A stretch of 64,000 nt of DNA from an uncultured Desulfobacteraceae bacterium (lineage in GTDB: Bacteria; Desulfobacterota; DSM-4660; Desulfatiglandales; HGW-15): positions 2,156 through 66,155 of the forward strand of contig CAYQNR010000004.1 of assembly GCA_964418945.1 (NCBI GenBank). The letters are read 5' to 3'. Numbering within the stretch: position 1 is the first letter of the stretch; every line of letters begins with the position of its first letter. Of this stretch, positions 376 through 58,185 are shown in pieces. The notes under the pieces are model-generated. The model was not told the DNA's origin. It searched no databases and was given only the letters and a program-made list of their open reading frames with translations. A program made the position numbers and the translations under genes.

Positions 376-432
376 TTGACATACAAGGCGAAAGTGAATA
401 TACTTCGATCGCAAATATCGAGTTCCTATCAA
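376..432 (+). promoter_or_regulatory. Sigma70-type promoter plus conserved leader box (copy P0), upstream of the MFS gene
   Basis: TTGACA (376-381), 17-nt spacer, TATACT (399-404), 8 nt, then AAATATCGAGTTCCTATCAA (413-432). The layout matches the other copies. Confidence 0.65.
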
Positions 433-774
433 CTTCTGGTAAAAAGAGCAACTCTTGCTTGTGTGGAATCCAACTGAGATGCGTACTATCGTTAACATCT
501 ATTTTTTGCTACGCAGTCACTTACAGTCCTCGGAGAAATCCGTTAACACAAAGAATGGGGTTTTCCGGATAATGCAACACCAGGCCAAATTATGGAAATA
601 TTGAAATTGCCGAAACAGATACATGTCACGGTCTTGTTAATAACAACAGTGTCGATCGTAAAGCAGGTTTGAGAGGGAGACATTATCCACATGCCATACA
701 TAGGTGGAGGCTAAACCAATTCGCGATTGAAGCGCCTTAAGAGGCCCGGAAATCGATTGATGAAGGAGGATCTT

Positions 775-2052
775 ATGGACGAGCAAGCCACAAACATTCC
801 GAATGCCATACCAAGAACACCTGGATATGCATGGGTAATTTTATTCGCTATTTACATGGCCACTCTGGCGTTGACACTGAATTTATTCAAAGTGCCGCCT
901 GTGATGTCTACTTTAATAAAAGAATTCAATTTGAATTACGCCCAAGCAGGGCTGATAATGTCCAGCTTTTCGATAATGGGCATCCTTCTTGCCATACCGG
1001 CAGGATATATTCTGAAGGGTTTCGGCATCAAAAAGACAGGTCTATTTTCAGTGGGCGCTGTTACGATCGGCTCGGTTTTGGGCGCGGTTGCGTCAACAAC
1101 CACATTGCTTTTCATCGGACGTTTTATCGAAGGCGTGGGAATGGGCCTGATTATGGTGGCGGCGCCGTTTACGATCAGTTTGTGGTTCCCGGCGCAAAAG
1201 CGAGCCTTGGCGACGGGATTATGGGCGAGTTGCGTGGGAATCGGAAACATCGTCACCCTTTTTTTCGCCCCGAAGATCACGGTGGCCTATGGATGGCAGG
1301 CTGTGTGGTGGGCAGCCACCGCTTTTTCGGCATTGGCTTTTATTCTATTTGCCATTCTGTTTCGAATGCCCAGAGAAGATGAAATGTATGAAGCTCCTCC
1401 AGCACCAAGCCCCGCAACACAAGAAGAAACAGCACCCAGTCTGGCAAAGGGTATGGCCAATAAGGACCTCTGGATGATAAGCATTTCGTTCGGAATTTAT
1501 AACCTGGTTGTCATGGCAATATTATCTATTCTTCCGACATTCTTGGAAACCCAACGTGGTTTTTTACTGACATTCGAAAAAGGCTTTCTCCTGAACGCTT
1601 CTTTCATTACCGCCTTCATAATGTTAGCTTCTGTCTTTACCGCACCTCTCGGCGGCTATATATCTGATCGTTTGGGCAAACGCAAGATCATGATTCTTAT
1701 TCCATACATCCTGATGACGGTAATGTTTCTTTTCATCTTTAAGGTGACAGGATTGATGATCCCGTTATATTTGTTTGTTTTCGGCATTGTCGGCGGCCCT
1801 CTGGCTACTGTTCTTCTCGCGTCTGTTCCGGAGGTGGCGAGAAAACCTCAATTCATCGGAATCGGCATGGCTGTAGCAGCTTTAGGCCAGAATATCGGGA
1901 TGTATATAGGCCCCTCGCTATTCGGCAAGATTTTGGACCAACTTGCTACTCCCACCGGTGTCGATATAGCGGCATATGTAACCGGAGGGTATTGGATGAT
2001 TCCTATATGCTTAATTGGCATTATTGCAACCTTCTTTATCAAGGTACGATAA
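775..2052 (+). CDS. MFS transporter
   Basis: Multi-TM hydrophobic profile typical of MFS. The ORF opens at TTG 727, but AAGGAGGA (763-770) precedes ATG 775, so the start is uncertain (727/760/775). Confidence 0.85.
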   Translation: MDEQATNIPNAIPRTPGYAWVILFAIYMATLALTLNLFKVPPVMSTLIKEFNLNYAQAGLIMSSFSIMGILLAIPAGYILKGFGIKKTGLFSVGAVTIGSVLGAVASTTTLLFIGRFIEGVGMGLIMVAAPFTISLWFPAQKRALATGLWASCVGIGNIVTLFFAPKITVAYGWQAVWWAATAFSALAFILFAILFRMPREDEMYEAPPAPSPATQEETAPSLAKGMANKDLWMISISFGIYNLVVMAILSILPTFLETQRGFLLTFEKGFLLNASFITAFIMLASVFTAPLGGYISDRLGKRKIMILIPYILMTVMFLFIFKVTGLMIPLYLFVFGIVGGPLATVLLASVPEVARKPQFIGIGMAVAALGQNIGMYIGPSLFGKILDQLATPTGVDIAAYVTGGYWMIPICLIGIIATFFIKVR

Positions 2053-2161
2053 TAAACCGCGATGAACGGAGCCATTTATTATAGTTTCAACCAGATTACG
2101 GGCAGGCCATAGGCAGCGTTCTTGGCCCAGGAAAATTGTATACATAATATAAGGAGGATTT

Positions 2162-3025: not shown

Positions 3026-3095
3026 CTCTTCAAACGGCAAAGGGAATATTTAAAACTGTGTCCGATACCGGATACAATCCAAAAGGAGGTTTACC

Positions 3096-3668: not shown

Positions 3669-3745
3669 CGGGGACAAGGAAGATCTCCAGTGGACATTTC
3701 TCAGAAGTATTTAGGGCATCCGTAAGATGAGTCGCGGCTACCGGT

Positions 3746-6134: not shown

Positions 6135-9100
6135 TTTCCATATGACTCGGTCCTGACACCTTTCGCTCCATCCCGTATCCCACAAGCTGCAGGTATCCGT
6201 CCTGCAGGCTGGGAGAGATCCTGCGGGCGTGAGGAAAAGGGGGTTCTGAACATAGGGCCCGCGCACGATAGAAGCCATCTTCTTCGGGAATCTGGTCCAC
6301 GATCATGGCGTCTTTTCTAATGTTCTTCTCCTCTCCAGCCCGGATTCTAAACTCCCATACCATGCCTTCCGCTTCTCTGGCCAGCATGGAAGGCTTGCCG
6401 TCAAAGACCATTTTTCCTGCGGCCAGGACAATCACCCTCTCACAGGCTACGGCCACATCTTCAACAACATGAGTTGAAAACAGAACCACCCGGTTTTCAG
6501 CCAGTTTAACCAGAAGATTCCTGAATCGGATACGCTCCCTCGGATCAAGACCCACTGTGGGTTCATCCACTATTATTATGGGAGGAAGACGTAGAAGGGT
6601 CCGCGCAACTGCCACACGCTGCCTCATCCCGCCCGAATACCCCTTGATCTCCTTATCCGCCTGCTCAGACAGGCCTACCTCCTCGATAAGGGTTTCAACC
6701 CTCCCCTTTTTCACAAGGCTGTCGCCGATATCGTATAGCAGGGCATAATATTCCAGGTATTCTCTTCCTGTCAGGTTTCCTGGCAGACCGAAGTCCTGCG
6801 GCAGGTATCCAATCCACCTTGCCAGGTGTCTCCTTATCTTTTTAATGGATATGCCACCAATATCTATAGCGCCTGTTGTAGGCACCAGTATTCCCGCCAG
6901 GGTCCTGAGAAGTGTTGTTTTACCTGCTCCATTTGGACCGAGTATGCCTATCATCCCCTTCTCTGCGCGGAAATGGACATTCTTGAGTGCCTCCACCTCA
7001 TCCCTGGGAAGATCCAAACTGAACAACCTTCTGCTTACCCTTCGCCAGACAGTTTTTACTCTTTGCAAGAATCCCCTGCCCACACGTTCCGTTATTCTTC
7101 CTGCAACCAGGTCTCTGGCTGTCTTTCTCCCCCCTTGAATATATACTATTAAAGCCCCTATGAGCACCAGGGCCAGAGGTGCAAGACGAGGATTTCCCTC
7201 TGCCATTACCGGTATGAGATAATAATGAATGCCCAATAATATGAACACAACCCACGGGACCAGAAATGCCAGCAAATGTTCTATCCCACCGGGATCAGGC
7301 CTGCCGGAAGGATCACACTTGCCCCTCAATCGTCTCAATTGAATCAGGATCTGGCCGAGTATTACGGCGCCGGTAAAGGAGAACACAAGACGCCACCATG
7401 TGGTGCTTAAGGAAAAGGCGAGATATCCTGCCCCTGAAAGGAGTACTATCCTTGTAATAATCGGTTGAATAGTGTCTACGGGTAAAAATGGCTTGCCTCC
7501 CCTGGCAAGGACCCTTTCCGCGAAGTGTTCTCCTGATCGCCAGGCACGACCCACAGGCCCCGGACGACCATATATCTTATGGAGGAATTTTACCTCTATG
7601 TCCATTTCTGCTTCCGGTTCAGGGATATCCGATCTCCTGAACAGAAGTACTATCACTCCAAGAATAACAGCGGCTACAAGCAATGTCGTTATGATCTGCC
7701 ATGTCATGGAAGAAATGTGATCAAATATAATGAGGGGAGACATAACCGCGGCGGTCATTCCAAACCACAGCACTGTTATCCATGGACCAAGTCTTCCAAA
7801 CAGCCTGTCCAGGCGGTTCAGGAACACAAAACCCATAGGGACCACAAGCAGGATAAGCAGGCTTGAAGTGGCCAGACCTCCCATAACCACTACGGCAAAG
7901 GACGGCCATATTTCATTCTCCCTGCCTGTGGGAATGGCCAGAGGCCATAACCCGGCGATTGTGGTGCATGTTGTCATTAAAACCGGCCTGACCCTTTCCC
8001 TGACCGCTGCTATTGCAGCGGCTCCTGCCGACCATGAACCTGTAAGTACCCTCTGCTGCATACGGTCTACAAGGAGAATGGCCGGGTTTACAGTAAGTCC
8101 GAGAAGAACAACAGCCCCTGCCATGGCCATCATATCCGCAGGCATGCCTGTCAGTACCAGTGCCCACGCTGATCCCAGTATTGTTAGAGGGACAGCAAAC
8201 AGCACAAGCACAGGCATCGTAAGAGATTCGAATGTAACAGCCAGCACGGCAAAGAGCAGGAGCAGCATTGGTATAAAAACACGTTTGAACCAGCTTGTAG
8301 ACTCTTCCTTATCCGGCGGATCAACGATATACCCCGCAGGAAGATGAATGCTCCTTATCATTGACAGAATTTCCTCATCCAGTGCATCCCTTGCCGGTCC
8401 TGTTTTAGGCACACTCCCGCTGAACCTGTAAAATACACTTAACTCCCTCCTGCCGTTGTGATGCTGGATCATGGGGGGAGGAGGCATCTTGTATGCATCA
8501 GACACGAGCCCAAGGGGCAGGACACCTGCGGTTGTCGGCAGCTTGAGTTTTTCCATCTTATAACTTACCCGACTGGAGGCGGTTTCATAGCTTCTGACAG
8601 TAAGGGGGATTTCTCTTCCATCGTCCAGGATCATTCCGGCTCGCATCTCCGTCCCTTCCCTGCTCAGCATACTCAGCATCGGCATTATCTGATCCGAAGT
8701 AAGTCCCAGACCGGTCAATATAAAATGATCAGGAACAACCTGTATTTCATCCTGCCCCGGCTTGGCTGAAAGCCAGACACCATGTCTGCCTATCTCCGGT
8801 ATAGATTCCAGTCTTTCCTTTATGGATTCGGCAAGAGCCTTTAACTGACCTGTATCAGGCCCGGAAAGAACAATTTCAGAAGGCCCCTGGCCGAACAATT
8901 GCGCGTTACCACCACCTTCTCTTGATCCCCCCTCCTCTCCCGATGTATCCTCAGACCGGATTTCTATGCCTTTGAGGGTTTTTGCAGCCTCTCTTACCTT
9001 TGATCTTACCCGATAGGCTGTCAGGTCTTCAGGACGTTCATCCCGGTCGACAAACTTTATATTAAGTGAACTGTTGTCCTCCCGCACAATACTTTCAACA

Positions 9101-15089: not shown

Positions 15090-18000
15090 TTAATCGCCCT
15101 TTGAGGGTGTCCAGCGTATTGCATCCGCGACAACAAGCTGTCCCTTTGTTCTATCAGAAAGTTCAACAGTCACTTTCCCTTCGGGAAGGTTCAGTTTTTC
15201 TGCCAGGTTCCATCCTTGAATTCCCGCCTCTGAATCAAACTCTATTTTATGCTGATCTCCATTACTGTCACTTACTGTAATATACCATGTACCATACCGT
15301 CTATTCATAAAACCGGTTTTCACAGGCAGATGCAGTTCAAGATCCCATGCGCCATCGTTTGGCAGGGAGGTCGAAAATAAGGCCCTCTTACTGCCTTTAC
15401 CCGGTCTTATTATCGCGAAAGTATGGCGATAGGTTCCCCAGGCTGTTGTTTCTGCTATGCGAGACCATTCACCGGGAACAGGTAACGCCAAAATGTTTGA
15501 AGCTATGTAGGGCAGCCCTTGATCTGTTTCCTCATCACTGTTATTACGTGCTTTTAAGCGCAACCCCTTTTTTTCTTCCTCTTCTGTGATTTCAAAACCT
15601 TTATCCAGATCATCAACAACAATTGAATTATCAACCGGAAGAGTCCACGGGATTTCCTCAATCCCTTTTATGGGATCCTTGTTAACAATCTTATCATGAT
15701 CAAAAAAATTGACGTTTATTAGGAAAATCATCCTGTTAAGCGACAGATACGGTTCCAGAAAATAGCTGTCTGGAAGCCTGGATAGAATCGTGCCGTATTG
15801 AAGCGAGTGCTTTCCTGCAAGCCTGATGGACTCACTTGTTGCAAGTTCAAAATTATTCGATTCTCCCGGATATAGATATACAAAACGAAAAACTCCTGGT
15901 ACGGGCTCATCATTTCTTACGGTAAACAACAGCTGATACTGCGGACTTCCATTCTCATCATCAGGAATTCGATAACCTTTTGCCTCGGAAACAACAAAGC
16001 CCGGCAGTTCGGCGCTACCAATCCAGTCACCAAACAACTCGTTAAAGTCATATCCCAGATCTTTTCCGACCTTTATCATATCATCAACAGAAAAACATTG
16101 GCCTTGGTGATTATTGCGAATAATTGAAAGGAGTGTGGCTGTTTTTTCCCGGCCAAGTACATCCAGTATAGCCTGGGATATGGCATAGCCCTTTAATGTA
16201 AGGACATCCACCGTATCTGCAGGGTCCTTCCAGGGATCCATGTCTTTCAGGGAAACCTCGAGGGCCTTTTCCCATACTGCAGGTCGTGATGTCATTGCCC
16301 TGATAGTAGCATCGGAAAAAGATACACCTAAAGAGCTGGTCTGGATGTAGTTCAATAATACCGAGGTAATGATAGAACTAATTTTGCTTCCGGCTGAGTA
16401 GATATGCGCGGAAAAATAACCCTTTGTGTCCGCGATCAGAAGCCCGGAAAGTGTTTCCATTACAAAATTGAGGGCAAGGCTTTCGGGCCCCACAGCAGAG
16501 GTCTGGTACAGGAAAAAATTTCGTGGTGCCCCTGTTAAGATATTCCCCCCGGAGAAATCATTCTTAAAAAAGGTCTGAAGCCTTTCCCATTTTGCCTGGG
16601 CTATGCCTCCTTCTCTGTCCTTATACCTTTTAGGATTTCTGAAAGCCGAATCAAAACGCGCTGTTGGCAGGGATAACTCCCTCAGCAGTAATAGGCCCGG
16701 AGGAAACTGGACCGTATCAAGCCGCCATCCGCCTCCATATGCCCGTAAACAGGTCGGTACCTCTACCACTGTAAAACCGTCGTAGGGATACCCCAATCCC
16801 ATCTCCTTCGCCTCTTTTAATCTATCACCTGCCCATTCGCGTATTTTATCACCGGTCTCTGCAAGTACCTCAATGTTCTTCATATGTTTTTTAGAGATTA
16901 ACACTTCCATTAAAACATTATCCACTTCAAAGGAGCGGCTTTCAAACCGTGATGCGATCAGTGCAACCTCCGGTACCTGAGATGGAGGTGAAAAACGGAA
17001 CACATTAAATCCATTTCTTTCTTCCACCTTTTGTCGTCTGCCAGGTCCTGCAACAAGCCATGTTTCCGGAAGCTCAACCAAAAGGTCCACATTAAAAAAA
17101 TCCGTAGCCCGTTCTCGCGGGTCATTACGTCCCTTTTCAGGCCCGGACGCGGGCAGCCATCGAGCAGCAGGCATTAATGCAACAAAACCTGAATTGAAGA
17201 TAATATTTTCAGTTCCGAGCAGGGCAATATTGTTACTATTCAGAACACTCATCTCCTGAATATTCATCGCGCTCTTGAGATACGCAAAGTTTTTATCGGG
17301 CAGACCTTCAACATGCAGGAGTACAACTGTTTCTTCACCGGGGGAAAGAATTTCAGGCAGTGAGATCTCGAGCAATCCGTTATTGTGGATGAAATCTATC
17401 GGGTTACCTGTAATATCAAGGACCTTTGTTACCTTTTGGCCCGGGTTGAGGGTAAAGAGGGCCTTTTTTAACGAGTTATCTTCAGGCGCGCAGAACCTGA
17501 TATCGAGATCGAGATCCAGTTTTTCCCCGGGAATGATCTTTACTTTTCCGGAGACAGTTTTAAGATCAGGCACAGGCTCCTGGCTATATTTGCCATGTGC
17601 TTCATACCACAATTCCTGGTTTCTTATAGCTTTTACATCATTAGAATACACAAAACCTAAAAGGCCGGCTGCTATAATAACAATTGCCGTTCCCACGATA
17701 GCAAGTTTTGCGCGAGAACCGTCATCAAGCCGTGGATGAACGGCAGCGCTGACACCCAGTATACCAAGGGAGGCAATGAGTATGGCTATTCGATGCAGCA
17801 GAGCGTCAGCGTCGCTAATGAGGGGAACTAGTTCCGAGGGAAAATTCATCTGGAACATCCCGTAAATATCAAATATTTGGGCTTTATAGAAGGGGAGCTT
17901 TGATATTGCCCAGACATCAAGTCCCATAAGTATAAGAAGAATAACAGCCGAGACCAACCTGTTGCGTACAAGTAAAGTGATCATGAATACAACTGATAGC

Positions 18001-20949: not shown

Positions 20950-21042
20950 GTTTTTGTTATAGATCAGGGTGAATTATGATGTGGAATATCCTTTCGAAGA
21001 TCCTGATCTTTTGACCCACAATGTTACACGTGTCATTTTGTC

Positions 21043-21100
21043 TTGACACACCAGGGCTATCTTCCTATGCTAATTCTCTGAAAAAGCCAGTTCTTATCAA
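21043..21100 (+). promoter_or_regulatory. Promoter plus leader box (copy P1)
   Basis: TTGACA, 17-nt spacer, TATGCT, 9 nt, then AAAAAGCCAGTTCTTATCAA. Confidence 0.65.
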
Positions 21101-21719: not shown

Positions 21720-21768
21720 GTATCATTGATGAAGCTTTTGGACTCCAAGATTTAAAAGGCCCGACGAC

Positions 21769-21796
21769 CTGGACACCCATGAATGGGTGTCCAGGT
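21769..21796 (+). terminator. Perfect 12-bp hairpin after the SnoaL-like gene
   Basis: CCTGGACACCCA-tgaa-TGGGTGTCCAGG. The T-tract is weak. Confidence 0.45.
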
Positions 21797-21991
21797 ATTA
21801 AACACGGAAACTATCCGTTTATTTCACTCCAAGCGGGTTGTGCAATTCGGCGAGTGGCCTTGTGAAGATGCACTCAAGGAAGGCGTCTATCGGCATTTGG
21901 TCTTAAGCACAACCAAATACTGTCTCGACTAGTCATCTTCTCAATCTCCCCATATAGTTTCTTCCCACATTATCATGTGTCTATTATCACT

Positions 21992-22048
21992 TTGACACCC
22001 AAGGGTAAAACTTCTATACTCCGTTCCCAAAAAAGCGAGTTCTTATCA
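21992..22048 (+). promoter_or_regulatory. Promoter plus leader box (copy P2)
   Basis: TTGACA, 17-nt spacer, TATACT, 8 nt, then AAAAAAGCGAGTTCTTATCA. ATG 22065 follows. Confidence 0.7.
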
Positions 22049-22064
22049 CCTAAGGGAGAAATCA

Positions 22065-23996
22065 ATGAAAAGAAAATTTCCTAACCTGTTCAGTCCATTA
22101 AAAGTGGGCAATGTTACTTTAAAGAATCGTATAATATCTGCACCGATGACATTCCCCATACTGACTGCTAACAGTTGTCTGACTCCAGAAGCGAACGCAT
22201 TTTATGAGCTGCGTGCAAAGGGAGGGGCAGCGGTCGTGACAGTAAGCGAATTAATAGTTCACAGCGCAACAGGCAAGTACTATCCTGTCCAGGTTCTTAT
22301 GGATGCCCCGAATGCCAAAGACAGCCTTGCAACCGCGGCGCGCGCGGTTAAGCGTCACGGGGCCATACCCAGTATGGAACTATCTCATGGCGGGAAATAT
22401 TCCCTGACAAACGCAGAGAATCCTGTCAGTTATGGCCCCAGTGATGAGTTCTCAGACGGGATTCAGTTTGCCCGTGAAATGCCCCGAGAAATTGTAGAAC
22501 AGATCATTGAAGCCTATGGGAAAGCTGCGTTATTGTGCAAAGCGGCAGGTTTTGAAATGTTGCTTATACATGCGGGACATGGGTGGCTTCTTCAACAGTT
22601 TCTGTCTCCGGCAAGCAACAAAAGGACGGATGAATACGGCGGAAGCTTGGAGAACAGAGCCCGTCTGGCACTTGAAGTCATTGATAAAGTACGTTCTGTT
22701 GTCGGACCCGGATTTCCTCTTGAACTGAGAATGAGCGCTGAGGAGTACCTGGATGACGGCTATTCCTTTGATGAAGCAATTCAATTCGCGAAACTTGCAG
22801 AAAGCAAAATTGATCTGCTCCAGGTCTCTACAGGATCTCATGAGGGAAGCTTTGAAAAGACACATCCTTCAGCATTTATGGAACGCGGTGTAAATGTGCA
22901 TTATGCTGAAAAAATAAAAAAGAATGTTTCTATCCCAGTATCTACTATCGGCGCATTGAATGAGCCTGAAATGATGGAAGATATAATCACAACAAGCAAG
23001 GCTGATGCGGTTGTAATGGCAAGGGCACTTCTGGCAGATCCCTATCTGCCGAAAAAGGCATTCATGGGTAAAGACGAAGAGATAGTCCGCTGTTACAGAT
23101 GCTTTGTCTGCATGGGCGAACGCATGAACACAGGTTTGCGTATTTGCGCATTGAATCCGGTTATAGGCAGTGAATATGAAGCTAATTTTATTCATTCTAC
23201 AGTCAAACCAAAGAATCTTCTCATAGCGGGTGGAGGTCCCGCAGGGATGCAGGCAGCTATAACAGCCGCCGAACGCGGACACAATGTAATACTCTGTGAG
23301 AAAAGTGATGAGCTAGGAGGTGCGCTCAAAGCAGTGAAAGGAATCCCGTTTAAGAAGGATCTATTCAAATTCATTGCCACAAAAACCCTTCTAATGGAAA
23401 AAGCAGGAGTCGATGTACGATTGAATACAGAGGTTACATCTGATCTTGTAGAAAGCATTGAGCCTGATGTTCTCATTATTGCTGTCGGAGCTGAGCCGAT
23501 CATTCCATCCATGCCGGGTATTAATGGCTCTAATGTAATTATAGCTAATGATCTTCCTGATCAATATGATAAGATTGGTCATAAGGTCGTTGTGCTCGGC
23601 GGCGGACTTGTGGGATGTGAGACAGCAGTACACATGGCACAGGAAGGCAAAGACGTAACTGTCATTGAGATGCTGCACGAAGTCTGCCCAGACGCCAATC
23701 CACGTTACAGGCCTTTGCTTCTTGATCAGCTTGAAAAGCACGTTACCTGCAGGACTGACATGCGTGGCATTTGCATCACAGAAGAGGGACTTGTATGTGC
23801 TGATACAGATAGTAATGAAATTCTTTTTGATGCTGGTACGATCATTTGTGCTGTAGGGCAGAAACCGCTTCGCAGCGTTGTGGATAAACTTCGCAACTGC
23901 GCGCCTGAAGTAATTGAGATCGGCGACTGCGTAAAGCCCGGTCATGTAACCGAGGCAGTGTTCCGCGGATACTGGGCAGGGATTGATATTGAATGA
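22065..23996 (+). CDS. OYE-like FMN / Fe-S / FAD-NAD(P) oxidoreductase (2,4-dienoyl-CoA / enoate reductase family)
   Basis: N-terminal TIM-barrel OYE pattern, Cys cluster CYRCFVCMGERMNTGLRIC, and a GGGPAG dinucleotide fold. Confidence 0.88.
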   Translation: MKRKFPNLFSPLKVGNVTLKNRIISAPMTFPILTANSCLTPEANAFYELRAKGGAAVVTVSELIVHSATGKYYPVQVLMDAPNAKDSLATAARAVKRHGAIPSMELSHGGKYSLTNAENPVSYGPSDEFSDGIQFAREMPREIVEQIIEAYGKAALLCKAAGFEMLLIHAGHGWLLQQFLSPASNKRTDEYGGSLENRARLALEVIDKVRSVVGPGFPLELRMSAEEYLDDGYSFDEAIQFAKLAESKIDLLQVSTGSHEGSFEKTHPSAFMERGVNVHYAEKIKKNVSIPVSTIGALNEPEMMEDIITTSKADAVVMARALLADPYLPKKAFMGKDEEIVRCYRCFVCMGERMNTGLRICALNPVIGSEYEANFIHSTVKPKNLLIAGGGPAGMQAAITAAERGHNVILCEKSDELGGALKAVKGIPFKKDLFKFIATKTLLMEKAGVDVRLNTEVTSDLVESIEPDVLIIAVGAEPIIPSMPGINGSNVIIANDLPDQYDKIGHKVVVLGGGLVGCETAVHMAQEGKDVTVIEMLHEVCPDANPRYRPLLLDQLEKHVTCRTDMRGICITEEGLVCADTDSNEILFDAGTIICAVGQKPLRSVVDKLRNCAPEVIEIGDCVKPGHVTEAVFRGYWAGIDIE

Positions 23997-24054
23997 AGAA
24001 TAGTCAATCACAGGTCCCTTAAATCAAGAAAGAAAAATCATTCGATGCTCTGGA

Positions 24055-24400
24055 ATGGCCCTGCCAAAAAGCGACGGGATGGAGGCACTTGCCTCCATGC
24101 CTGGCGAGGCGAAGCTGTGCGAAGACTGCTGTTCTCATATTCCCAATAGGGGAAAACAGATGGTCAGCTATTATGGCTGTTATAATAATGTGAGTCGCGG
24201 AAAACGGAAAAATCAGGACCAGGACAAACTAATCCCCTCCAGCTTGGAACCGGATGAATCATTAAGAAAACCCTTAAGAACCGGTCAAGGCTGATTGAAA
24301 AGATCTAGGAAGAGTACCCGCTGACTTGCCTAAAACGTTCTTCTGCCAAATCTTCCGGTCTTGCTCATAATGCCCAGCACATTATTTTACTTTGATCTGT
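24055..24400 (+). pseudogene. IS91-family transposase C-terminal remnant
   Basis: ...HIPNRGKQMVSYYGCYNNVSRGKRK resembles the IS91 C-terminal region. Homology continues in another frame with an internal stop (RLIEKI*EEYPLTCLK). Confidence 0.5.
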
Positions 24401-27734: not shown

Positions 27735-27790
27735 TTTACAATTAAACATTCATTCACTATGATGTTGCCGGTTGATGCGGTCCTCATCAA
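27735..27790 (+). promoter_or_regulatory. Promoter plus diverged leader box (copy P7)
   Basis: TTTACA, 17-nt spacer, TATGAT, 8 nt, then TTGATGCGGTCCTCATCAA, which is itself an inverted repeat. Confidence 0.45.
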
Positions 27791-38403: not shown

Positions 38404-38461
38404 TTGATAAAAATTCGCTTTTTAATGAACGGAGTATAGAAGATTTGCAGTTGTATGTCAA
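38404..38461 (-). promoter_or_regulatory. Promoter plus leader box (copy P3)
   Basis: Read on the minus strand: TTGACA, 17-nt spacer, TATACT, 9 nt, then AAAAAGCGAATTTTTATCAA. Confidence 0.65.
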
Positions 38462-38775
38462 ATAAACTCTGCCGCACATTTCGGCTGGAAATCACAAGCT
38501 GGATTTAAGGGCTCTAATCAGCAAGGGAACAGATTCAAATACTGTAATGTCTATGACGGCATCATCAATGATATCAAATATCTATGCATCTGTGACCCCA
38601 CCGCCAGTGTCATGGTACGAATGCTATGTTCCCTGGTCAAAGGTAAGAGTATAAACGAGGCGGAACCTCTCACCGGAAAATCTTTTTCACAGGGGATGGG
38701 AGGCGGTATTATTCTTAATTGACAAATAGATGCATAAGTGATATTTGAATAAAAATATGTATTGTTTTCTATAAT

Positions 38776-38793
38776 ACAAAGCAGTTTTATCAA
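38776..38793 (+). promoter_or_regulatory. Leader-box-like motif upstream of the Mop gene (copy P6, not position-locked)
   Basis: ACAAAGCAGTTTTATCAA lies directly after a TATAAT (38770-38775). Its spacing differs from the other copies. Confidence 0.3.
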
Positions 38794-45461: not shown

Positions 45462-46805
45462 CTATTTATAAACGCCGTATTCCTTGGCTGCTTCCATCAC
45501 CGCCCGCAGGTTATCCGCGTTCCCCTTATTCATAGCGACTCCCCCGGTTAATATATAGCCACCGCCCGGGGCGCAGACCTCGATGAGTTGACGGCAGCAT
45601 TCTTTGACTTCCTGGGGGGTGCCGGTATACAGCACTGAGGAGGGTATATTGCCCGCAATGCAGGCAGTATCACCCAGGATCTTTTTGGCTCTAGCCATAT
45701 CCGTCTGGTCAAACCACCATACCGCCGAACCGCGCGGCAGGTCTTTGATAACCTCCAGTCGCCGGTTGTACTTCCCTTCGGCAAAGGGCATGGGAACCAG
45801 GCCCTCGTTAATCATGCCCATCATCACCTCTCTAAAGGTGGGCCAGTAAAAGGTCTCGTACTGCTTGTCGGACATGAAGGTGTCGTCACCCTTATGCAAG
45901 GGCATAGGTACCACCGGGCAATTCGTTGCATTGGCCGAGGCTACGGCTTCATTAATAAGCATAGGCAACATTCGTTCCATAGCTTCAATGATCTTCTCCG
46001 GCTGGCGGTACATATCCACCATTATCCCGTGCGTCCCCCTCAAAAGATCACCTAGCATGTCAAAGGGCGCGCCGCTAAAGCCTCCCCAGATGGAGGGGAG
46101 TCCCGCCTCCAGAGACGCTCGGCTGCATTCCATAACCACCTGCATCCACTTGTTCGCTTCCGTGCCGGCATCCATAAGAACCTTAAGAGCCTTCTGAATC
46201 TCCGGCCGACCGTACTGGAGAATATAAAAAACCGGTATCGCCAGCATGGGACTTAGTTGAGGAAGAGTCCCCAGCGGCTCCAGGGCCTTCGCGACCCGGG
46301 GGAGGTAGAACCGCCACCAGAAATCGGACGGATCTGTCATGAGGGCGTCATATTCATCTGCCTTCATATATTCGCCCTCAATGAACTGATATGTTTCATT
46401 ATCATCCGGCAGGCCATGGCCTGGCCAGACCTGCAGCCTGAAATCAATGGCTTCAAGCACCTTCCCCGGCATCACGAGCTCGGGGCCAAGATACGTATCC
46501 ATCTCAAAATCATGGAGGAACTTCATATACACCCGTTTCAGCTCGTCGTAATCATACATCGCCTCTTTCAGGTTACTTCCGGCATAGAAAGGCGCGAAAA
46601 ACCCTGCCGGCATCAGGACGGGAACACGGTCAGCCTCTTCCAGGTTAATGGCTTTAATGAATCTTGTGGCTCTTAGCTTATAGGCTTCTTCGGCTTCGGG
46701 GCTGGTGAATTTAACATCAGGCGAAAGCCACCGCTTAAACCTCTCTTCCCGTCTTTCCTGCGGGGTCAACTCCGACCAGTTTTTAACCGTATCCATATCT
46801 AACAC
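45462..46805 (-). CDS. URO-D family protein (methyltransferase-like), paralogue 2
   Basis: 447 aa, homologous to 29023-30255. GGAGG lies upstream of the ATG. Confidence 0.78.
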   Translation of the reverse strand: MLDMDTVKNWSELTPQERREERFKRWLSPDVKFTSPEAEEAYKLRATRFIKAINLEEADRVPVLMPAGFFAPFYAGSNLKEAMYDYDELKRVYMKFLHDFEMDTYLGPELVMPGKVLEAIDFRLQVWPGHGLPDDNETYQFIEGEYMKADEYDALMTDPSDFWWRFYLPRVAKALEPLGTLPQLSPMLAIPVFYILQYGRPEIQKALKVLMDAGTEANKWMQVVMECSRASLEAGLPSIWGGFSGAPFDMLGDLLRGTHGIMVDMYRQPEKIIEAMERMLPMLINEAVASANATNCPVVPMPLHKGDDTFMSDKQYETFYWPTFREVMMGMINEGLVPMPFAEGKYNRRLEVIKDLPRGSAVWWFDQTDMARAKKILGDTACIAGNIPSSVLYTGTPQEVKECCRQLIEVCAPGGGYILTGGVAMNKGNADNLRAVMEAAKEYGVYK

Positions 46806-46902: not shown

Positions 46903-47051
46903 TTGATAAGAACTCACCTTTTTTGGGACTGAAGTGTATCGGATTTCCCCTTGTATGTCAAACCAAATCCGGCAGCAGGGTATTATGGCGGGAAACTTGC
47001 TTGCTAGACTGGTTAATTCCGGCCAAGTGGGCGAGCACATTTTAAGCAATT
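46903..47051 (-). promoter_or_regulatory. Promoter plus leader box (copy P4) with ~90-bp conserved upstream module
   Basis: Read on the minus strand: TTGACA (46961-46956), 17-nt spacer, TACACT, 8 nt, then AAAAAAGGTGAGTTCTTATCAA. The upstream part aligns with 58097-58185. Confidence 0.7.
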
Positions 47052-49222: not shown

Positions 49223-49223
49223 C

Positions 49224-49280
49224 TTGCTCGGTACGTAATTTTGGCATATACTCATTTTCAGAAAACAGGTTCCCATCATG
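49224..49280 (+). promoter_or_regulatory. Promoter plus diverged leader box (copy P8)
   Basis: TTGCTC, 17-nt spacer, TATACT, 8 nt, then GAAAACAGGTTCCCATCATG. Confidence 0.45.
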
Positions 49281-54315: not shown

Positions 54316-54346
54316 TGCGGTTTTCATTGTTATATATCCAGATTTC

Positions 54347-55333: not shown

Positions 55334-55354
55334 TATTTATCTAATTTATTCAGA

Positions 55355-57925
55355 TCAGTCGAAAGACAGCTCAGTTCTGTTTATAAGGTCGCTCTGAAGC
55401 TCCTCGCTGAGTTCCACAAAATACGCGCTGTAACCTGCTATACGCACAAGCAGATCTTTATACTGATCCGGTTTTTTCTGAGCGTCTATAAGGATATCTT
55501 TGCCAATAATATTAAACTGGCTCTGCATGCCTCTGTCTTTAAAATAGACATCCATAAGTGAGATAAGACTATCCCTGCCAGCTTCTCCTGATACAGCTCC
55601 AGGAGAGAATTTCCAGTTGAGAATTATTCCATTGCCAATGCGGCTGTGATCCAGCTTTGCCACTGACTTTGCTATTGCTGTTGGCCCGCTTCTGTCATGA
55701 GACCCCATCTCAGTATGCACAGGGCCTATGCAGTCGGACAGAGGCTCATACGCTTTTCTGCCATCCGGCGTGGTTGCTGTAAACAAACCAGCCATAACAT
55801 TCTGTGTAACGGAAAAAATTCCCGGCATATATTCGCCGCCATGCGGTGTGGGTCTGTGCTCAACGTGTTTGCAGTACGTATCTGTTACGAATCTCGCCAC
55901 ATCATCGGCATAATCGTCATCATTGCCGTAACAATGCATCCTGTCACTGTTTACTAACGCGTACAATGGCTCATACCCTCCCCAGTTCGCTTTTAACGCA
56001 TCGAGCATTGTTTTCCCGTCCACTTTCCTTTCGTCAAACACAAGCTGTTTTATTGCAGTGAGGCTGTCCGCTACAGTTCCTATTCCTACACCCTGCGGAC
56101 CGCTGTGATTATAAAGGGCGCCTCCTGTTGATACGTCCTTGCCCCTGCCTATACAATCTTGGATAAGAAGGGACAGATAAGGCAAGGGTTTAAGCCTCTG
56201 ATGCGCTGTATCCACCTTGTTGACCTGGGAGATCATAATATCGCACCAGTATTCCATTTGCTTGTCAAAGGATTCCATAACTTCATCAAAGGAACTAAAG
56301 GTTTCAAGACTGCCTGTATCAATTCCCAGCCTGCCTCCTATGCCTGCGCATTTTTTATGTCTGGGACAATGAGGACCGCAGTCAATACAGCGTCCGCTGT
56401 TTATGGCAAGCTGCATTACCTTTGCCATATTAAAGGAGCTGGAATCATGCCAGCCATAGGTCTTGCCAGGCACACAAGGTTCAACGCATCCTATTCCAAC
56501 ATAATTTCTTGCATCCTCAATAGGCTTATCATAGTTCTGCAGAGCTTTGATCATTTCAGTATCATTGAAGATCTTTGGCTCGCCGGTTCCGATCCTAATC
56601 ACATTAAAGGTCTTTATCTTGAATTCCCGCGGGGAGTTTTCATGAAGACGCACTCCCATCCATGGATTCGGTATCCTGGTATGCGCATGCGCGTCCAGCA
56701 CCATGTAGCTGAGATCATTCGTAGCGTCATTGCCGTCTTTGTCAACTCCGCCGACATCAAGGGCTGTTCCTCCCATGAAAGTGCCGCTTGAAAAGACTAT
56801 TGCTGTCTTATCGCGGATCTTGCAGAGTTCATGGATTTTGAGGAAGGACATCTCTATGAGTTCCTGAATAAATTCCCTGCTGAATCTGCCTTCTTCAATA
56901 TCTTTTTTATAATAAGGATAAAAGAGCTGATCGAAACGTCCATAAGTTACGGAATGACCGTTTGATTCTATAATGATCATATCAGTTGCAATTTGCCACA
57001 GCTGTATTGCTTCCCAGAAATCCCTGGCAGGGCCTTCCGCCACCTGAAAACAGTTTGCAGAAATACGGAGGAGTTCGGCTTTTCTCTTATCGCTTGTCTC
57101 TTTTTCTGCCATATCAGCAGCTAGCTGCGCATAACGCTTTATGTATGAAACAGCACCCTCCAACGAGATCAACGCAGCGTCGTAGAATTCTTTTTTAAAG
57201 ATATCTTCTGGGTCTGATGTATTCAGCTTTGCAATTTGTTCCTGTATCTGTTTTCTAATTCCGCCGAATCCGAGAGTAAACAGCCTTTCATAGTCAGCGC
57301 AGACATGTCCTACACCTGCTGAAACGAATAAATCGAAAAAATTTATGCCCTTTAGGAGATGAGAGCCTTTGAGCTCTTCTTCAGTCAATGTGCTGAGAAC
57401 ATTCTCTTCCAGAGTGTTTCCTTTCCAATATTGCCGAATCTGGAACAGCGCTTCTTTAGTCTTGTCATCAATAACATAACGGTCATTGCGGCGCTGATCA
57501 AGCGGGAAATTGACCATTTCGTCGCATAGCCAGTCAATAGCGAACTCAGGATAAACAGGCGCGCTTTTTGCCGGTGCGGCTATTTCCCCGACTATCAGTT
57601 CATCTGGCCAGATGTTTATATTCACATTCTGGAGTACATCACGGTAAGTCATTGCGCATTTAAGTATCTGAGGATATGCAGTATATTTTTTGAAGTATCC
57701 TTCTGTGTATATTACCGCCCTCTGATGGTCAGCAGTATGAGCCCTGGCCTTTAGCCATTTCAATATTTTATTTATTCTGGGAAATGGCGACGGGTTTTCT
57801 GTTACACCGGAAACGCCGATTCCCCATTCTTTATCATAGGGTTCTATCCCTAAGGGTTTTTGAACCGAGGGTTCTTGAGTAAATGAGTCAGGGGAATTTA
57901 TATTATTTTCTACTACTGTATCCAT
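55355..57925 (-). CDS. Glycyl-radical enzyme, PFL2/eliminase class, second paralogue, substrate unknown
   Basis: VRIAGYSAYFVEL glycyl motif and GIGCVEPCVPG Cys loop. Confidence 0.9.
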   Translation of the reverse strand: MDTVVENNINSPDSFTQEPSVQKPLGIEPYDKEWGIGVSGVTENPSPFPRINKILKWLKARAHTADHQRAVIYTEGYFKKYTAYPQILKCAMTYRDVLQNVNINIWPDELIVGEIAAPAKSAPVYPEFAIDWLCDEMVNFPLDQRRNDRYVIDDKTKEALFQIRQYWKGNTLEENVLSTLTEEELKGSHLLKGINFFDLFVSAGVGHVCADYERLFTLGFGGIRKQIQEQIAKLNTSDPEDIFKKEFYDAALISLEGAVSYIKRYAQLAADMAEKETSDKRKAELLRISANCFQVAEGPARDFWEAIQLWQIATDMIIIESNGHSVTYGRFDQLFYPYYKKDIEEGRFSREFIQELIEMSFLKIHELCKIRDKTAIVFSSGTFMGGTALDVGGVDKDGNDATNDLSYMVLDAHAHTRIPNPWMGVRLHENSPREFKIKTFNVIRIGTGEPKIFNDTEMIKALQNYDKPIEDARNYVGIGCVEPCVPGKTYGWHDSSSFNMAKVMQLAINSGRCIDCGPHCPRHKKCAGIGGRLGIDTGSLETFSSFDEVMESFDKQMEYWCDIMISQVNKVDTAHQRLKPLPYLSLLIQDCIGRGKDVSTGGALYNHSGPQGVGIGTVADSLTAIKQLVFDERKVDGKTMLDALKANWGGYEPLYALVNSDRMHCYGNDDDYADDVARFVTDTYCKHVEHRPTPHGGEYMPGIFSVTQNVMAGLFTATTPDGRKAYEPLSDCIGPVHTEMGSHDRSGPTAIAKSVAKLDHSRIGNGIILNWKFSPGAVSGEAGRDSLISLMDVYFKDRGMQSQFNIIGKDILIDAQKKPDQYKDLLVRIAGYSAYFVELSEELQSDLINRTELSFD

Positions 57926-58039
57926 TGTATTTTCCTCTAATAATAAACAATAGGGAATTTATTTAAAACTCAATTGAAATTTTTAAAGGAAATTCAATAA
58001 AAGCATAACAATGATATTAATAATCAAAAGGAATAATAT

Positions 58040-58185
58040 TTGATAAGAATTCGCTTTTTGCGGCTGAAGTGTATTGAATTTCCCCTTGTATGTCAAATGA
58101 ATTCAGCCGCAAAATATTGTGGCAGGAAACTGGCTTGTTATATTGTTTAATTCCAGCCAGGAGGGCGAGGAAATTTTAAGCAATT
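58040..58185 (-). promoter_or_regulatory. Promoter plus leader box (copy P5) with ~90-bp conserved upstream module
   Basis: Read on the minus strand: TTGACA (58096-58091), 17-nt spacer, TACACT, 8 nt, then AAAAAGCGAATTCTTATCAA. The upstream part aligns with 46962-47051. Confidence 0.7.

What the first reader, a model, noticed from the sequence alone, without database searches (positions are those of the whole stretch)
376..58185. Position-locked promoter and leader-box module upstream of at least seven transcription units: a candidate regulon signature
The same layout recurs throughout the window: TTGACA, 17-nt spacer, TA(t/c)ACT, 8-9 nt, then AAAAAGCGAGTTCTTATCAA.

Copies:
- 376-432 (+, MFS gene)
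- 21043-21100 (+, SnoaL lipoprotein)
- 21992-22048 (+, OYE reductase)
- 38404-38461 (-, selenoprotein operon)
- 46903-46961 (-, URO-D paralogue 2)
- 58040-58096 (-, GRE2 and activase)
- diverged copies at 27735-27790 (+, DUF169) and 49224-49280 (+, GRE1)
- a box-only match at 38776-38793 (+, Mop)

Even the spacer is conserved (C/TACAAGGG...). The 20-nt box begins about 1-3 nt after the expected transcription start. It could therefore be a repressor operator or a shared 5'-leader element. The module links otherwise unrelated enzymes (GREs, OYE, selenoprotein operon, URO-D, transporters) into one putative regulon. No cognate DNA-binding regulator is encoded in the window.
Basis: seen in the sequence. 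Interest (0 to 1): 0.7.

Follow-up and report, generated by a model that had tools for sequence, protein, structure and literature searches.

The report
Mobile promoter: end of IS91-type transposon
The repeated "promoter plus leader box" is real, but it is the outward-facing end of a rolling-circle insertion sequence (IS91/ISCR family) scattered through sulfate-reducer-type genomes, mostly as short leftover ends that sit in front of unrelated genes and probably drive them, not the mark of a dedicated regulon.

Summary
Six position-locked copies of TTGACA-N17-TA(t/c)ACT-N8-9-AAAAAGCGAGTTCTTATCA lie in the window, against 0 expected by chance. The three "diverged" or box-only copies are weak or unsupported.

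The regulon reading does not hold. The same module occurs in more than 113 contigs, nearly all labelled Deltaproteobacteria, Thermodesulfobacteriota or member orders. It sits in front of unrelated genes (92 Pfam families in 82 loci) and once in front of a tRNA.

- Homology between copies ends within 0-3 nt of TATCA in 364 of 457 pairs. The 5' extent varies from 0 to more than 500 nt.
- Six loci carry an IS91-family Y2 transposase gene or remnant directly upstream on the same strand.
- Of four transposase homologues chosen by protein alone, three carry the module 150-390 nt after the stop codon. Sequence diverges right after it.
- In a complete Trichlorobacter lovleyi plasmid, six copies of a related IS all end in a diverged version of the module.

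The module is therefore the oriIS-side terminus of an IS91/ISCR-like element with an outward consensus sigma-70-type promoter, as in ISCR1 POUT. The window copies are solo or 5'-truncated ends. Promoter activity is inferred from 85 of 98 downstream genes being co-oriented. It is a new member of a known kind.

The parts
368..432 (+). Module copy 1, a solo IS end. It has -35 TTGACA (376), -10 TATACT and a terminal box with 3 mismatches. An MFS-type ORF starts about 324 nt downstream.
   Evidence: (E 1.1e-6)
21017..21100 (+). Module copy 2, a solo IS end with about 25 nt of IS-derived upstream sequence. The -10 is TATGCT. The SnoaL_4 gene starts 25 nt after the box.
   Evidence: (E 2.3e-13)
21824..21909 (+). 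Remnant of the N-terminal (zinc-finger) region of an IS91-family transposase gene. It lies between the SnoaL gene and module copy 3.
   Evidence: 71% to L238 278-363; 69% to L240; read directly
21969..22049 (+). Module copy 3, the IS right end. The Oxidored_FMN/Pyr_redox (OYE-type) gene starts 15 nt after the box.
   Evidence: (E 1.6e-13)
24029..24338 (+). Remnant of the central part of an IS91-family Y2 transposase gene, immediately after the OYE gene.
   Evidence: tblastn E 7e-13; 61-63% nt to three full transposase genes
38404..38481 (-). Module copy 4, a solo IS end. The downstream ORF starts 28 nt after the box.
   Evidence: (E 1.5e-12)
46903..47051 (-). Module copy 5 in its long form of 149 nt: the 57-nt core plus about 92 nt of shared upstream sequence. 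The downstream ORF (45462-46805) starts about 97 nt after the box.
   Evidence: (E 8.9e-11)
58040..58185 (-). Module copy 6 in its long form of 146 nt, paralogous to copy 5 over its whole length. The glycyl-radical enzyme gene (55355-57925) starts 114 nt after the box.
   Evidence: (E 3.5e-10)
49224..49280 (+). Possible decayed copy. It keeps -10 TATACT and about 13 of 18 box bases at the right distance but has no -35. Membership is uncertain.
   Evidence: read by eye; not significant

Best explanation
**What it is.** The module is the right-hand (oriIS-side) terminus of an IS91/ISCR-family rolling-circle insertion sequence. The family is widespread in contigs labelled Deltaproteobacteria or Thermodesulfobacteriota.

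**The full element.** It is about 1.7-1.8 kb long. It encodes a Y2 HUH transposase of about 450 aa (Zn_Tnp_IS91 + Y2_Tnp). About 150-390 nt after the stop codon it ends in this order:
1. an imperfect palindrome (in about half of the copies);
2. a T-rich stretch;
3. TTGACAyAyAA, then 17 nt, then TATACT;
4. 8-9 C-rich nt;
5. AAAAAGCGAGTTCTTATCA, which is the very end of the element.

**What the window holds.** The six window copies, and about 95% of copies elsewhere, are solo or 5'-truncated right ends of 57 to about 180 nt with no transposase gene.

**How it works (inferred).**
- The near-invariant terminal box is the transposase recognition and cleavage region, so it stays locked to the element's end.
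- The consensus -35 and -10 just inside the end form an outward promoter like POUT of ISCR1. Transcripts would start in the A-run and carry the box as a fixed 5' leader.
- Each insertion therefore places the same strong promoter in front of whatever gene lies beyond the end.
- Copies oriented toward a gene start are the ones that persist.

**Shown versus inferred.** Shown here: identity with the IS terminus, a fixed 3' and variable 5' boundary, unrelated flanks, and orientation bias. Inferred: promoter activity, the transcription start, the role of the box in nicking, and rolling-circle mobilisation of the short forms.
For: **1. Spread and unrelated neighbours.**
- More than 113 genome contigs carry the full pattern, against about 0.2 expected (my estimate). 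Nearly all are labelled Deltaproteobacteria, Thermodesulfobacteriota or member orders.
- Downstream genes fall into 92 Pfam families in 82 loci, and upstream genes into 111 families in 87 loci.
- One copy drives a tRNA-Ser.

**2. Repeat behaviour.**
- In 457 pairs, homology ends 0-3 nt after TATCA in 364 and 4-12 nt after it in 78. The 5' start varies from 0 to more than 250 nt.
- 52 pairs are at least 80% identical even at the 22 non-consensus core positions. In 38 of them both flanks are unrelated.
- Among 36 such pairs, 26 stop within 2 nt after TATCA and 13 stop within 2 nt before TTGACA.
- Contigs break at the module, as in L041 and L094.

**3. Link to the transposase.**
- L044 and L060 have a Y2_Tnp gene directly upstream on the same strand.
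- L023, L047, L073 and L083 have truncated remnants in the same position. 11 of about 114 module loci hold fragments, against 0 in 563 kb of control loci.

**4. Independent test.** Full-length homologues were picked by protein only.
- P0014 carries a full module 164-243 nt after the stop (E 1e-12).
- P0100 carries one 383 nt after the stop.
- P0045 is an identical transposase found in several contexts. The module lies 151-232 nt after the stop, sequences diverge right after GTCTTATCAAT, and the element is 1708 bp with no inverted ends.

**5. Finished sequence of a cultured relative.** In Trichlorobacter lovleyi pIAE1, five full copies and one 462-nt 5'-truncated copy all end in TTGACG-N18-TATACA-N10-AAAAAGCAAATTCCTATT. 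The flanks then diverge.

**6. Remnants in the window.** Transposase remnants lie next to copy 3 and after the OYE gene.

**7. Promoter use.** The downstream long ORF is co-oriented in 85 of 98 cases (p = 4e-14), at a median of 100 nt.

**8. Published precedent.**
- The 232-bp oriIS region of ISCR1 lies downstream of the transposase gene, holds outward promoters and abuts variable co-oriented genes (PMC6218425).
- IS91 ends are distinct, there is no target duplication, and one-ended transposition leaves variable terIS-side ends (PMC13181058).
Against: - No transcription start, promoter activity or transposition was measured.
- The classical IS91-family target tetranucleotide (GTTC or CTTG) is not seen next to the end. 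Flanks are A/T-rich or begin with CCT or GAC.
- The subterminal palindrome is present in only about half of the copies and shows no convincing covariation.
- About 95% of copies have no transposase gene nearby. How 57-nt units arise or move is unexplained by known IS91 behaviour, where read-through lengthens rather than shortens the transferred segment.
- One homologue (P0059, L239) gave no information, because its contig ends 242 nt after the stop.
- No true empty site was found.
- All loci outside the T. lovleyi plasmid are metagenome assemblies. Chimeric joins at repeats could create some of the 'different contexts'.
Confidence: 0.8

Rival explanations
1. **Regulon signature.** The box at +1 to +20 is an operator or leader element for a dedicated regulator. 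That regulator would co-control GREs, OYE, the selenoprotein operon, URO-D paralogues and transporters.
For: - The box is position-locked just downstream of the expected start and is very strongly conserved.
- All copies face genes.
- Genes sharing one promoter would indeed be co-expressed.
Against: - Downstream genes are unrelated across genomes, and include a tRNA.
- The box is not palindromic and has no repeat structure (read directly).
- No regulator lies next to any window copy.
- The box is the terminus of an IS in five transposase lineages.
- At the orthologous GRE2 site the box has decayed while the hexamers are kept.
Confidence: 0.04
2. **BoxA-type antitermination leader.** GUUCUUAUCAA at the transcript's 5' end would be a NusB/NusE (S10) binding site, as in rRNA operons and lambda nut sites. 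It would make transcription from these promoters resistant to termination.
For: - The box matches GYTCTT of the gamma-proteobacterial BoxA consensus GYTCTTTAANA (PMC5725501). From memory, it also matches the lambda form GCUCUUA.
- In 16S-bearing contigs with a Desulfobacterales-type signature, BoxA sits directly after the rRNA promoter in similar geometry.
- The leader RNA is predicted to be unstructured.
- A tRNA is driven by one copy.
Against: - The genuine rRNA BoxA in these lineages is GYTCTTTGA(A/C)AA in 48 instances and is never the module's form. The module's form never occurs in 563 kb of rRNA loci.
- BoxA does not explain the invariant AAAAAGCGA part.
- It also does not explain why homology stops exactly at TATCA.
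- The T. lovleyi relative has TTCCTATT instead.
- The resemblance rests on 6-7 bases found after the fact.
Confidence: 0.05
3. **Host promoter class captured or targeted by the IS.** The module would be an ancient, vertically inherited strong-promoter type of these bacteria. The insertion sequences would either have picked one up or insert preferentially next to it. Similarity among copies would be kept by selection and gene conversion.
For: - Conservation is block-wise (-35 extension, -10, box), with variable bases between.
- There is a strong orientation bias toward genes.
- About 95% of copies lack a transposase.
- rRNA promoters of related bacteria also carry a conserved element right after the start.
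Against: - Transposases only 55-68% identical to each other, in different taxa, all carry the module as their last bases at a similar distance from the stop.
- Identical IS copies in different contexts diverge exactly after it.
- Truncated transposase remnants are contiguous with modules.
- Copies that share even the non-consensus bases have unrelated flanks.
- Related genomes sampled through their 16S loci have none.
Confidence: 0.08

Closest known systems
ISCR1 (IS91-like 'common region' element) with its oriIS region and POUT promoters (PMC6218425, PMC13393415)
   Same: - A Y2/HUH rolling-circle transposase gene is followed by an oriIS region of about 230 nt that marks a sharp element boundary.
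- Outward-facing promoters lie inside that region.
- Variable, mostly co-oriented genes lie beyond the boundary, 0 to more than 1000 bp away.
- A palindromic, possibly LexA-type, site overlaps the transposase promoter at the other end.
   Different: - ISCR1's outward promoters are weak matches (TAAACG-N17-TAAGAT and TTCGGA-N18-TTTATA). Here there is one near-consensus TTGACA-N17-TATACT.
- ISCR1 is tied to class 1 integrons and resistance genes in gamma-proteobacteria. Here the hosts are contigs labelled Deltaproteobacteria or Thermodesulfobacteriota, and the neighbours are catabolic, transport and other genes.
- Here most copies are very short solo ends, down to 57 nt.
IS91, IS801 and IS1294 (canonical IS91 family; PMC13181058)
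   Same: - The transposase has the same domain pair (PF14319 + PF04986).
- The two ends are different and there are no inverted repeats.
- No target duplication is seen.
- oriIS lies downstream of tnpA.
- The terIS-side boundaries vary, as in one-ended transposition. In T. lovleyi four copies carry 126 nt more on the left, and the shortest left end begins with GTTC.
   Different: - Protein identity to plasmid-borne IS91-family transposases is only about 29-32%.
- No GTTC or CTTG target is seen next to the oriIS end.
- The terminal sequence is different.
- Massive accumulation of 5'-truncated ends is not described for these elements.
Promoter-bearing miniature repeats and 'putative mobile promoters' (Correia elements; PMC3575422)
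   Same: - Short dispersed repeats carry functional-looking promoters.
- They lie upstream of non-homologous genes.
- They are shared between genomes of different orders.
   Different: - Correia elements have terminal inverted repeats and TA duplications. This unit has neither, and it derives from one end of a rolling-circle IS.
- The mobile-promoter survey did not identify a source element for most of its families.
BoxA / Nus-factor leader of rRNA operons (PMC5725501)
   Same: - A short conserved, unstructured sequence lies at the 5' end of transcripts right after a strong promoter.
- It shares the GYUCUU core.
   Different: - It is not the same sequence as the rRNA BoxA of these lineages.
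- Its conservation is explained by the IS terminus.
- Membership was tested and not met.

Membership tests
IS91 / ISCR family insertion sequence (right, oriIS-side end) | The element encodes a Y2 HUH transposase (Zn_Tnp_IS91 PF14319 + Y2_Tnp PF04986). | tested here: met
   - L044 matches Y2_Tnp at E 1e-12.
- There are 2376 homologues. Full-length ones are about 445-466 aa and carry PF14319 + PF04986.
- Plasmid relatives are annotated 'IS91 family transposase'.
IS91 / ISCR family insertion sequence (right, oriIS-side end) | The end in question lies downstream of tnpA on the same strand and forms a sharp element boundary with unrelated DNA beyond it. | tested here: met
   - the module lies 20-390 nt after the stop.
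- Identical IS copies diverge right after it.
- 364 of 457 pairs end within 0-3 nt.
IS91 / ISCR family insertion sequence (right, oriIS-side end) | The two ends are different (no terminal inverted repeats) and there is no target-site duplication. | tested here: met
   - The P0045 element starts TTGACTTCAAATCG and ends GTCTTATCAAT.
- T. lovleyi copies show no inverted ends and no direct repeats in their flanks.
IS91 / ISCR family insertion sequence (right, oriIS-side end) | A conserved target tetranucleotide (GTTC or CTTG type) abuts oriIS. | tested here: inconclusive
   - The flanks show only A at +1 (57%) and weak T at +2 and +3.
- T. lovleyi flanks start CCT (4 of 6) or GAC (2 of 6).
- The invariant terminal ATCA could itself be the target, but this cannot be separated from the element by sequence alone.
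IS91 / ISCR family insertion sequence (right, oriIS-side end) | Subterminal imperfect palindrome(s) lie in the oriIS region. | tested here: inconclusive
   - A CCACAAnATnnTGTGG-like motif lies about 12 nt upstream of the -35 in roughly half of the copies.
- Pairing is barely above shuffles: 261 paired cells against 239 +/- 12.
IS91 / ISCR family insertion sequence (right, oriIS-side end) | The boundary on the terIS side is variable (one-ended transposition). | tested here: met
   - The 5' extents vary from 0 to more than 500 nt.
- T. lovleyi copies differ by 126 nt on the left, and there is one 462-nt truncated copy.
- Most variants here are shorter than the full element, which is not the classical read-through pattern.
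IS91 / ISCR family insertion sequence (right, oriIS-side end) | The transposase nicks at the end and the element moves by rolling-circle transposition. | not testable with these tools
   The only indirect signs are 100%-identical copies in one plasmid, tandem duplicates of the terminal box and a variable number of (T)CAAT repeats at one junction.
IS-borne outward promoter (POUT type) | A complete -35 and -10 lie inside the element end and read outward, with co-oriented downstream genes. | tested here: met
   - TTGACA-N17-TATACT lies 20-57 nt from the end.
- 85 of 98 downstream long ORFs are co-oriented, p = 4e-14.
- Actual transcription was not measured.
Transcription-factor regulon (operator shared by functionally linked genes) | The site sits upstream of a coherent gene set that is conserved across genomes, with a cognate regulator. 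| tested here: not met
   - Downstream genes fall into 92 Pfam families in 82 loci, plus a tRNA.
- No regulator is adjacent.
- The box has decayed at the orthologous GRE2 site.
BoxA (NusB/NusE site) | The sequence equals the BoxA of the same lineage's rRNA leader and spacer (consensus GYTCTTTAANA type). | tested here: not met
   - The rRNA BoxA is GYTCTTTGA(A/C)AA in 48 instances.
- The module core GTTCYTATCA is absent from those 563 kb.
- The rRNA loci may come from other species than the module bearers.
Structured cis-regulatory RNA (riboswitch or leader) | A conserved secondary structure, or a match to a described RNA family. | tested here: not met
   - No Rfam match at gathering threshold or at E<=1.
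- The eight leaders share no fold, and z-scores range from -1.8 to +1.0.

The most novel reading that the evidence does not exclude
The 57-nt core (5'-TTGACA...TATCA-3') would be a discrete, minimal, non-autonomous rolling-circle unit. In effect it would be a transposable promoter cassette, mobilised in trans by the Y2 transposase.

Transfer would start at the terminal box and end prematurely at the TTGAC of the promoter's own -35. That sequence mimics the TTGAC with which the full P0045-type element begins. The -35 hexamer would then double as a termination site.

The host lineage would have come to rely on these cassettes to switch on newly acquired catabolic and transport genes. The outward promoter would also drive the transposase across the joined ends of circular intermediates.
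Probability: 0.2. Interest if true: 0.7.

Novelty: new member of a known kind. Interest (0 to 1): 0.45.

Why it matters
- **It prevents a false regulon call.** Genome scans and motif-based regulon reconstruction in these poorly cultured anaerobes would read this repeat as a global operator.
- **It points to a source of gene expression.** One IS91-like family may supply a ready-made strong promoter and a fixed 5' leader to many accessory genes in these lineages. These include glycyl-radical enzymes, flavin reductases and solute-binding proteins. In the window this is about one copy per 10 kb. That parallels how ISCR1 drives resistance genes in clinical bacteria, but here it acts on environmental catabolism.
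- **It gives practical handles.**
  - The element is a marker for recently rearranged or acquired DNA.
  - It is a frequent cause of contig breaks in metagenome assemblies.
  - It is a candidate portable promoter for genetics in these organisms.

Tried and rejected
- **Described RNA family.** No Rfam match at gathering threshold or at E<=1.
- **Conserved leader RNA structure or RBS occlusion.** Eight leaders share no fold.
- **Literature search by sequence.** Nothing relevant was found.
- **BoxA / Nus antitermination.** This was attractive at first. The rRNA BoxA of lineages sharing the Desulfobacterales-type 16S signature has a different form, and the module is absent from 563 kb of rRNA-bearing contigs.
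- **rRNA-type housekeeping promoter.** rRNA promoters do not carry the module.
- **Adjacent divergent regulators in the window.** The neighbours are an MFS transporter, an ABC substrate-binding protein, a molybdo-enzyme and proteins with no Pfam match.
- **A second upstream box copy (GCGAGTT) suggesting looping.** It occurs in only 5 of 111 loci.
- **A trans-encoded antisense RNA to the box.** 120 of 141 box matches carry the promoter at the locked distance. The rest are tandem duplicates, weaker -35 variants or chance hits in coding sequence.
- **Hairpin covariation of the upstream palindrome.** It is weak.
- **Empty-site test through GRE2 orthologues.** The 92% orthologue still has the module, and the 82-85% orthologues have different synteny. 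No clean empty site was found.
- **Chance hits in the genome scan.** Contigs labelled Paludibacteraceae, Clostridia, Pelagibacter, Ferruginibacter and Alcanivoracaceae look like A/T-rich chance matches. They lack the CACAA extension.

Full report
**1. The observation**

- The 20-nt box occurs six times in the window with up to 3 mismatches: 413-432(+), 21081-21100(+), 22030-22049(+), 38404-38423(-), 46903-46922(-) and 58040-58059(-). None is expected by chance.
- Five of the six are preceded by TTGACA-N17-TAYACT, against 0.02 expected. The sixth has TATGCT.
- An alignment shows the same layout in all six. A profile built only from foreign copies recovers exactly these six at E<=1.
  - 27735 is not supported.
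  - 49224 keeps the -10 and about 13 of 18 box bases but has no -35.
  - 38776 is a box-like string in a different geometry.

**2. It is not special to this window or to these genes**

- I scanned one genome per species with a degenerate form of the whole module. By my estimate about 0.2 chance matches are expected.
- Nearly all hits are metagenome-assembled genomes labelled Deltaproteobacteria, Thermodesulfobacteriota or member orders (Desulfobacterales, Syntrophales, Desulfatiglandales, Ca. Desulfacyla, Syntrophorhabdus).
- The window itself comes from a JGI metagenome.
- Positions I had left free are also conserved: CACAA after the -35, a T-run before the -10, and TTT before the -35.
- Conservation drops to background one base after TATCA.
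- The first gene downstream belongs to 92 different Pfam families in 82 loci. These include solute-binding proteins, dehydrogenases, thioesterases, a chloride channel, an RNase and a glycyl-radical enzyme.
- In L045 the module is followed 25 nt later by a tRNA-Ser.
- Upstream genes are just as diverse, with 111 families in 87 loci.
- No regulator lies beside the window copies. A functionally coherent regulon is thus not supported.

**3. RNA-level readings**

- No Rfam family matches. Eight leaders share no predicted structure.
- The 3' part of the box (GUUCUUAUCAA) resembles BoxA, the NusB/NusE site. The published gamma-proteobacterial consensus is GYTCTTTAANA (PMC5725501).
- To test this I fetched 120 metagenome contigs carrying a Desulfobacterales-type 16S signature.
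  - Their rRNA leaders and spacers carry GYTCTTTGAAAA and GYTCTTTGACAA, 48 instances in all. In several, BoxA follows directly after a TTGACA/TATAnT promoter.
  - The module's own form never occurs in those 563 kb, and no module is found there.
- The resemblance is limited to six or seven bases and does not explain the rest of the box. I keep it only as a low-probability side function.

**4. The module behaves as a repeat with one fixed end**

- 52 pairs of copies are at least 80% identical even at the 22 core positions that are not generally conserved. In 38 of them both flanks are unrelated, and in 10 only the upstream flank is similar.
- In pairwise BLAST, homology always stops at the 3' end of the box. 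It starts at -56, -63, -97, -121, -133, -161, -179 or about -500 to -700.
- Over all 457 informative pairs:
  - the 3' end falls 0-3 nt after TATCA in 364 pairs and 4-12 nt after it in 78;
  - the 5' start is spread over 0-3 nt (118 pairs), 4-10 (150), 11-50 (127), 51-110 (31) and more (7).
- Among the 36 most closely related pairs, 13 stop within 2 nt before TTGACA and 26 within 2 nt after TATCA. This indicates a discrete 57-nt form.
- Contigs often end at the module (L041/L094, L087, L018, L026), as expected of a multi-copy repeat.
- Of 141 box matches, 120 have the promoter at the locked distance. Most of the remainder are tandem duplicates of the terminal part or chance hits.

**5. The source element**

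- In L044 the gene directly upstream of the module, on the same strand, is a Y2_Tnp (PF04986) transposase.
- L060, from another taxon, has a 60%-identical homologue. Its reading frame runs to about 20 nt before the module.
- L023 carries the last 400 nt or so of such a gene fused to the module, at 83-87% identity to L044.
- tblastn finds fragments of this transposase in 11 of about 114 module loci. Six of them lie directly upstream and co-oriented (L044, L060, L023, L047, L073, L083). None occurs in the rRNA control set.
- The 180 nt between stop codon and module in L044 recur upstream of the module in L009.

**6. An independent test**

- I searched the protein alone. It has 2376 homologues. 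Full-length ones are about 445-466 aa with Zn_Tnp_IS91 + Y2_Tnp, many named 'transposase' from Deltaproteobacteria or Syntrophales, and most sit on short contigs.
- I fetched four homologues on longer contigs without regard to the module.
  - P0014 (L238) has a full module 164-243 nt after the stop (E 1e-12).
  - P0100 (L240) has one 383 nt after the stop.
  - P0045 is an identical protein found in several contexts (L241-L248). The module lies 151-232 nt after the stop, and the sequences diverge immediately after GTCTTATCAAT into three unrelated flanks.
  - P0059's contig ends too early to tell.
- The P0045 element is 1708 bp, running from 99 nt before the start codon to 232 nt after the stop. 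It begins TTGACTTCAAATCG, has no inverted ends and shows no flanking duplication.

**7. A finished sequence from a cultured relative**

- The best plasmid match is Trichlorobacter lovleyi IAE pIAE1, at 55% protein identity.
- It carries five identical full copies of about 1.8 kb and one 462-nt 5'-truncated copy.
- All six end in TTGACG-N18-TATACA-N10-AAAAAGCAAATTCCTATT, and their flanks differ after that point.
- The truncated copy has a tandem duplicate of the terminal ~20 nt.
- One left end begins with GTTC, and four others carry 126 nt more on the left.
- The architecture (outward promoter-like hexamers, then an A-run box as the last bases of the element) is thus conserved in a distant member of the family.

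**8. Back in the window**

- The six modules are solo or truncated ends.
- Copies 5 and 6 are long forms of 149 and 146 nt that share about 90 nt upstream of the -35.
- A remnant of the transposase zinc-finger region lies at 21824-21909, between the SnoaL gene and copy 3. A central remnant lies at 24029-24338, just after the OYE gene. The OYE gene therefore sits in a mosaic of decayed elements.
- At the orthologous GRE2 locus in another sample (92% protein identity) the module is present with the same flanks. It is 72 nt shorter at its 5' side. The box has decayed to GCAAGTTAACATCA, while TTGACA and TACACT are intact. This is one case only. It fits hexamers kept for expression and a box that mattered only for transposition.

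**9. How it most likely works**

Published work establishes the following.
- IS91-family elements have two different ends, oriIS and terIS. oriIS lies downstream of tnpA, next to the insertion target.
- They make no target duplication.
- Termination failure gives variable terIS-side ends (PMC13181058).
- ISCR1 carries outward promoters in its 232-bp oriIS region, which raise expression of the variable, co-oriented genes beyond it 13- to 15-fold (PMC6218425).

By analogy I infer the following.
- The terminal box is the transposase recognition and cleavage region.
- TTGACA-N17-TATACT is an outward promoter.
- Transcripts begin in the A-run and carry the box as their leader.

Use as a promoter is supported by orientation. 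The first long ORF downstream is co-oriented in 85 of 98 cases (p = 4e-14), at a median of 100 nt.

Not shown: transcription itself, nicking, and how the short forms arise. The outward promoter could also drive the transposase across the joined ends of a circular intermediate. That is inference only.

**10. Comparison and novelty**

- Membership in the IS91/ISCR family is met on four counts: transposase domains, position and sharpness of the end, absence of inverted repeats and duplications, and a variable opposite boundary.
- It is inconclusive for the target tetranucleotide and the subterminal palindrome. It cannot be tested here for mechanism.
- This is a new member of a known kind.
- The less ordinary aspects are the near-consensus promoter inside the end and the roughly 20:1 excess of very short solo ends placed in front of genes.
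- The finding is useful rather than surprising. It removes a tempting but false regulon and points to an IS-derived mobile promoter in these lineages.

Noticed in passing
L241:2439-2470; also L240 about 2440-2470 and L239 about 2440-2470 (just upstream of the transposase start codons): The transposase promoter reads TTGACA-AA-TAGAACGATCGTTCTA-CATTAT. A perfect 16-nt palindrome, TAGAAC-N4-GTTCTA, fills the spacer, and it is conserved in three diverged elements. From memory, it resembles GAAC-N4-GTTC LexA boxes. This would parallel the LexA control reported for ISCR1, ISCR2 and ISCR8 (PMC13393415). It could instead be the terIS palindrome.
   Followed up: partly
L241, L242, L245, L246, L248: the junction right after the IS end (e.g. 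L241:4108-4125): The same insertion site carries 0, 1, 2 or 3 extra (T)CAAT units between ...TTATCAAT and the flank GGCAGGAGCG in different samples. Across all loci, a second TATCA within 30 nt of the box is four times more frequent than in shuffles (22 against 5.2). This suggests repeated nicking or slippage at the end.
   Followed up: partly
L118-L237 (16S-bearing contigs), e.g. L139 -90, L135 -89 and L235 -92 relative to the 16S start: In these contigs, which carry a Desulfobacterales-type 16S signature, the rRNA BoxA is GYTCTTTGAAAA in the leader and GYTCTTTGACAA in the 16S-23S spacer. In several operons the leader BoxA starts only 13-20 nt after the -10 of a TTGACA/TATAnT promoter.
   Followed up: partly
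L044:171-1514(-) and L044:2918-3799(-): Here the module reads directly, 18 nt from box to start codon, into a reverse transcriptase with a group II intron maturase domain but no room for intron RNA domains upstream. An AbiJ_NTD4/DUF7014 protein lies upstream of the transposase. This looks like a defence island.
   Followed up: no
window 21720-24340: The OYE-type gene (22065-23996) is bracketed by two non-contiguous remnants of the transposase gene and is preceded by a module. A second OYE-type gene (24891-26990) lies convergent to it. The segment looks like a product of IS-mediated rearrangement or capture.
   Followed up: partly
L259 (T. lovleyi pIAE1 150001-200000), copy at 17012-17473: A 462-nt 5'-truncated IS copy has its terminal ~20 nt duplicated in tandem (GAAAAAGCAAATTCCTATTCCT twice). 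Similar tandem box duplicates occur in L023, L033 and L052. In the same record, annotated CDSs (a UvrD-like helicase and a P-type ATPase fragment) run into the IS ends.
   Followed up: partly
L061:3927-3982(-): A c-di-GMP-I riboswitch match (37.2 bits, gathering score 35) lies in a module-bearing Desulfobacteraceae contig. It is unrelated to the module.
   Followed up: no
L113:2742-3642 and 6887-7244 (minus-strand coordinates of the script): A short string recurs at exact 180-nt intervals inside a long ORF downstream of a module. This indicates a protein with 60-residue tandem repeats.
   Followed up: no
L026, L050, L063, L065, L099, L103, L109, L041: Genuine-looking modules sit on contigs binned as Firmicutes, Hydrogenedentota, Berkelbacteria, NC10, Bathyarchaeia, other archaea and Gammaproteobacteria. 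This is either mis-binning of repeat-bearing short contigs or horizontal spread.
   Followed up: no
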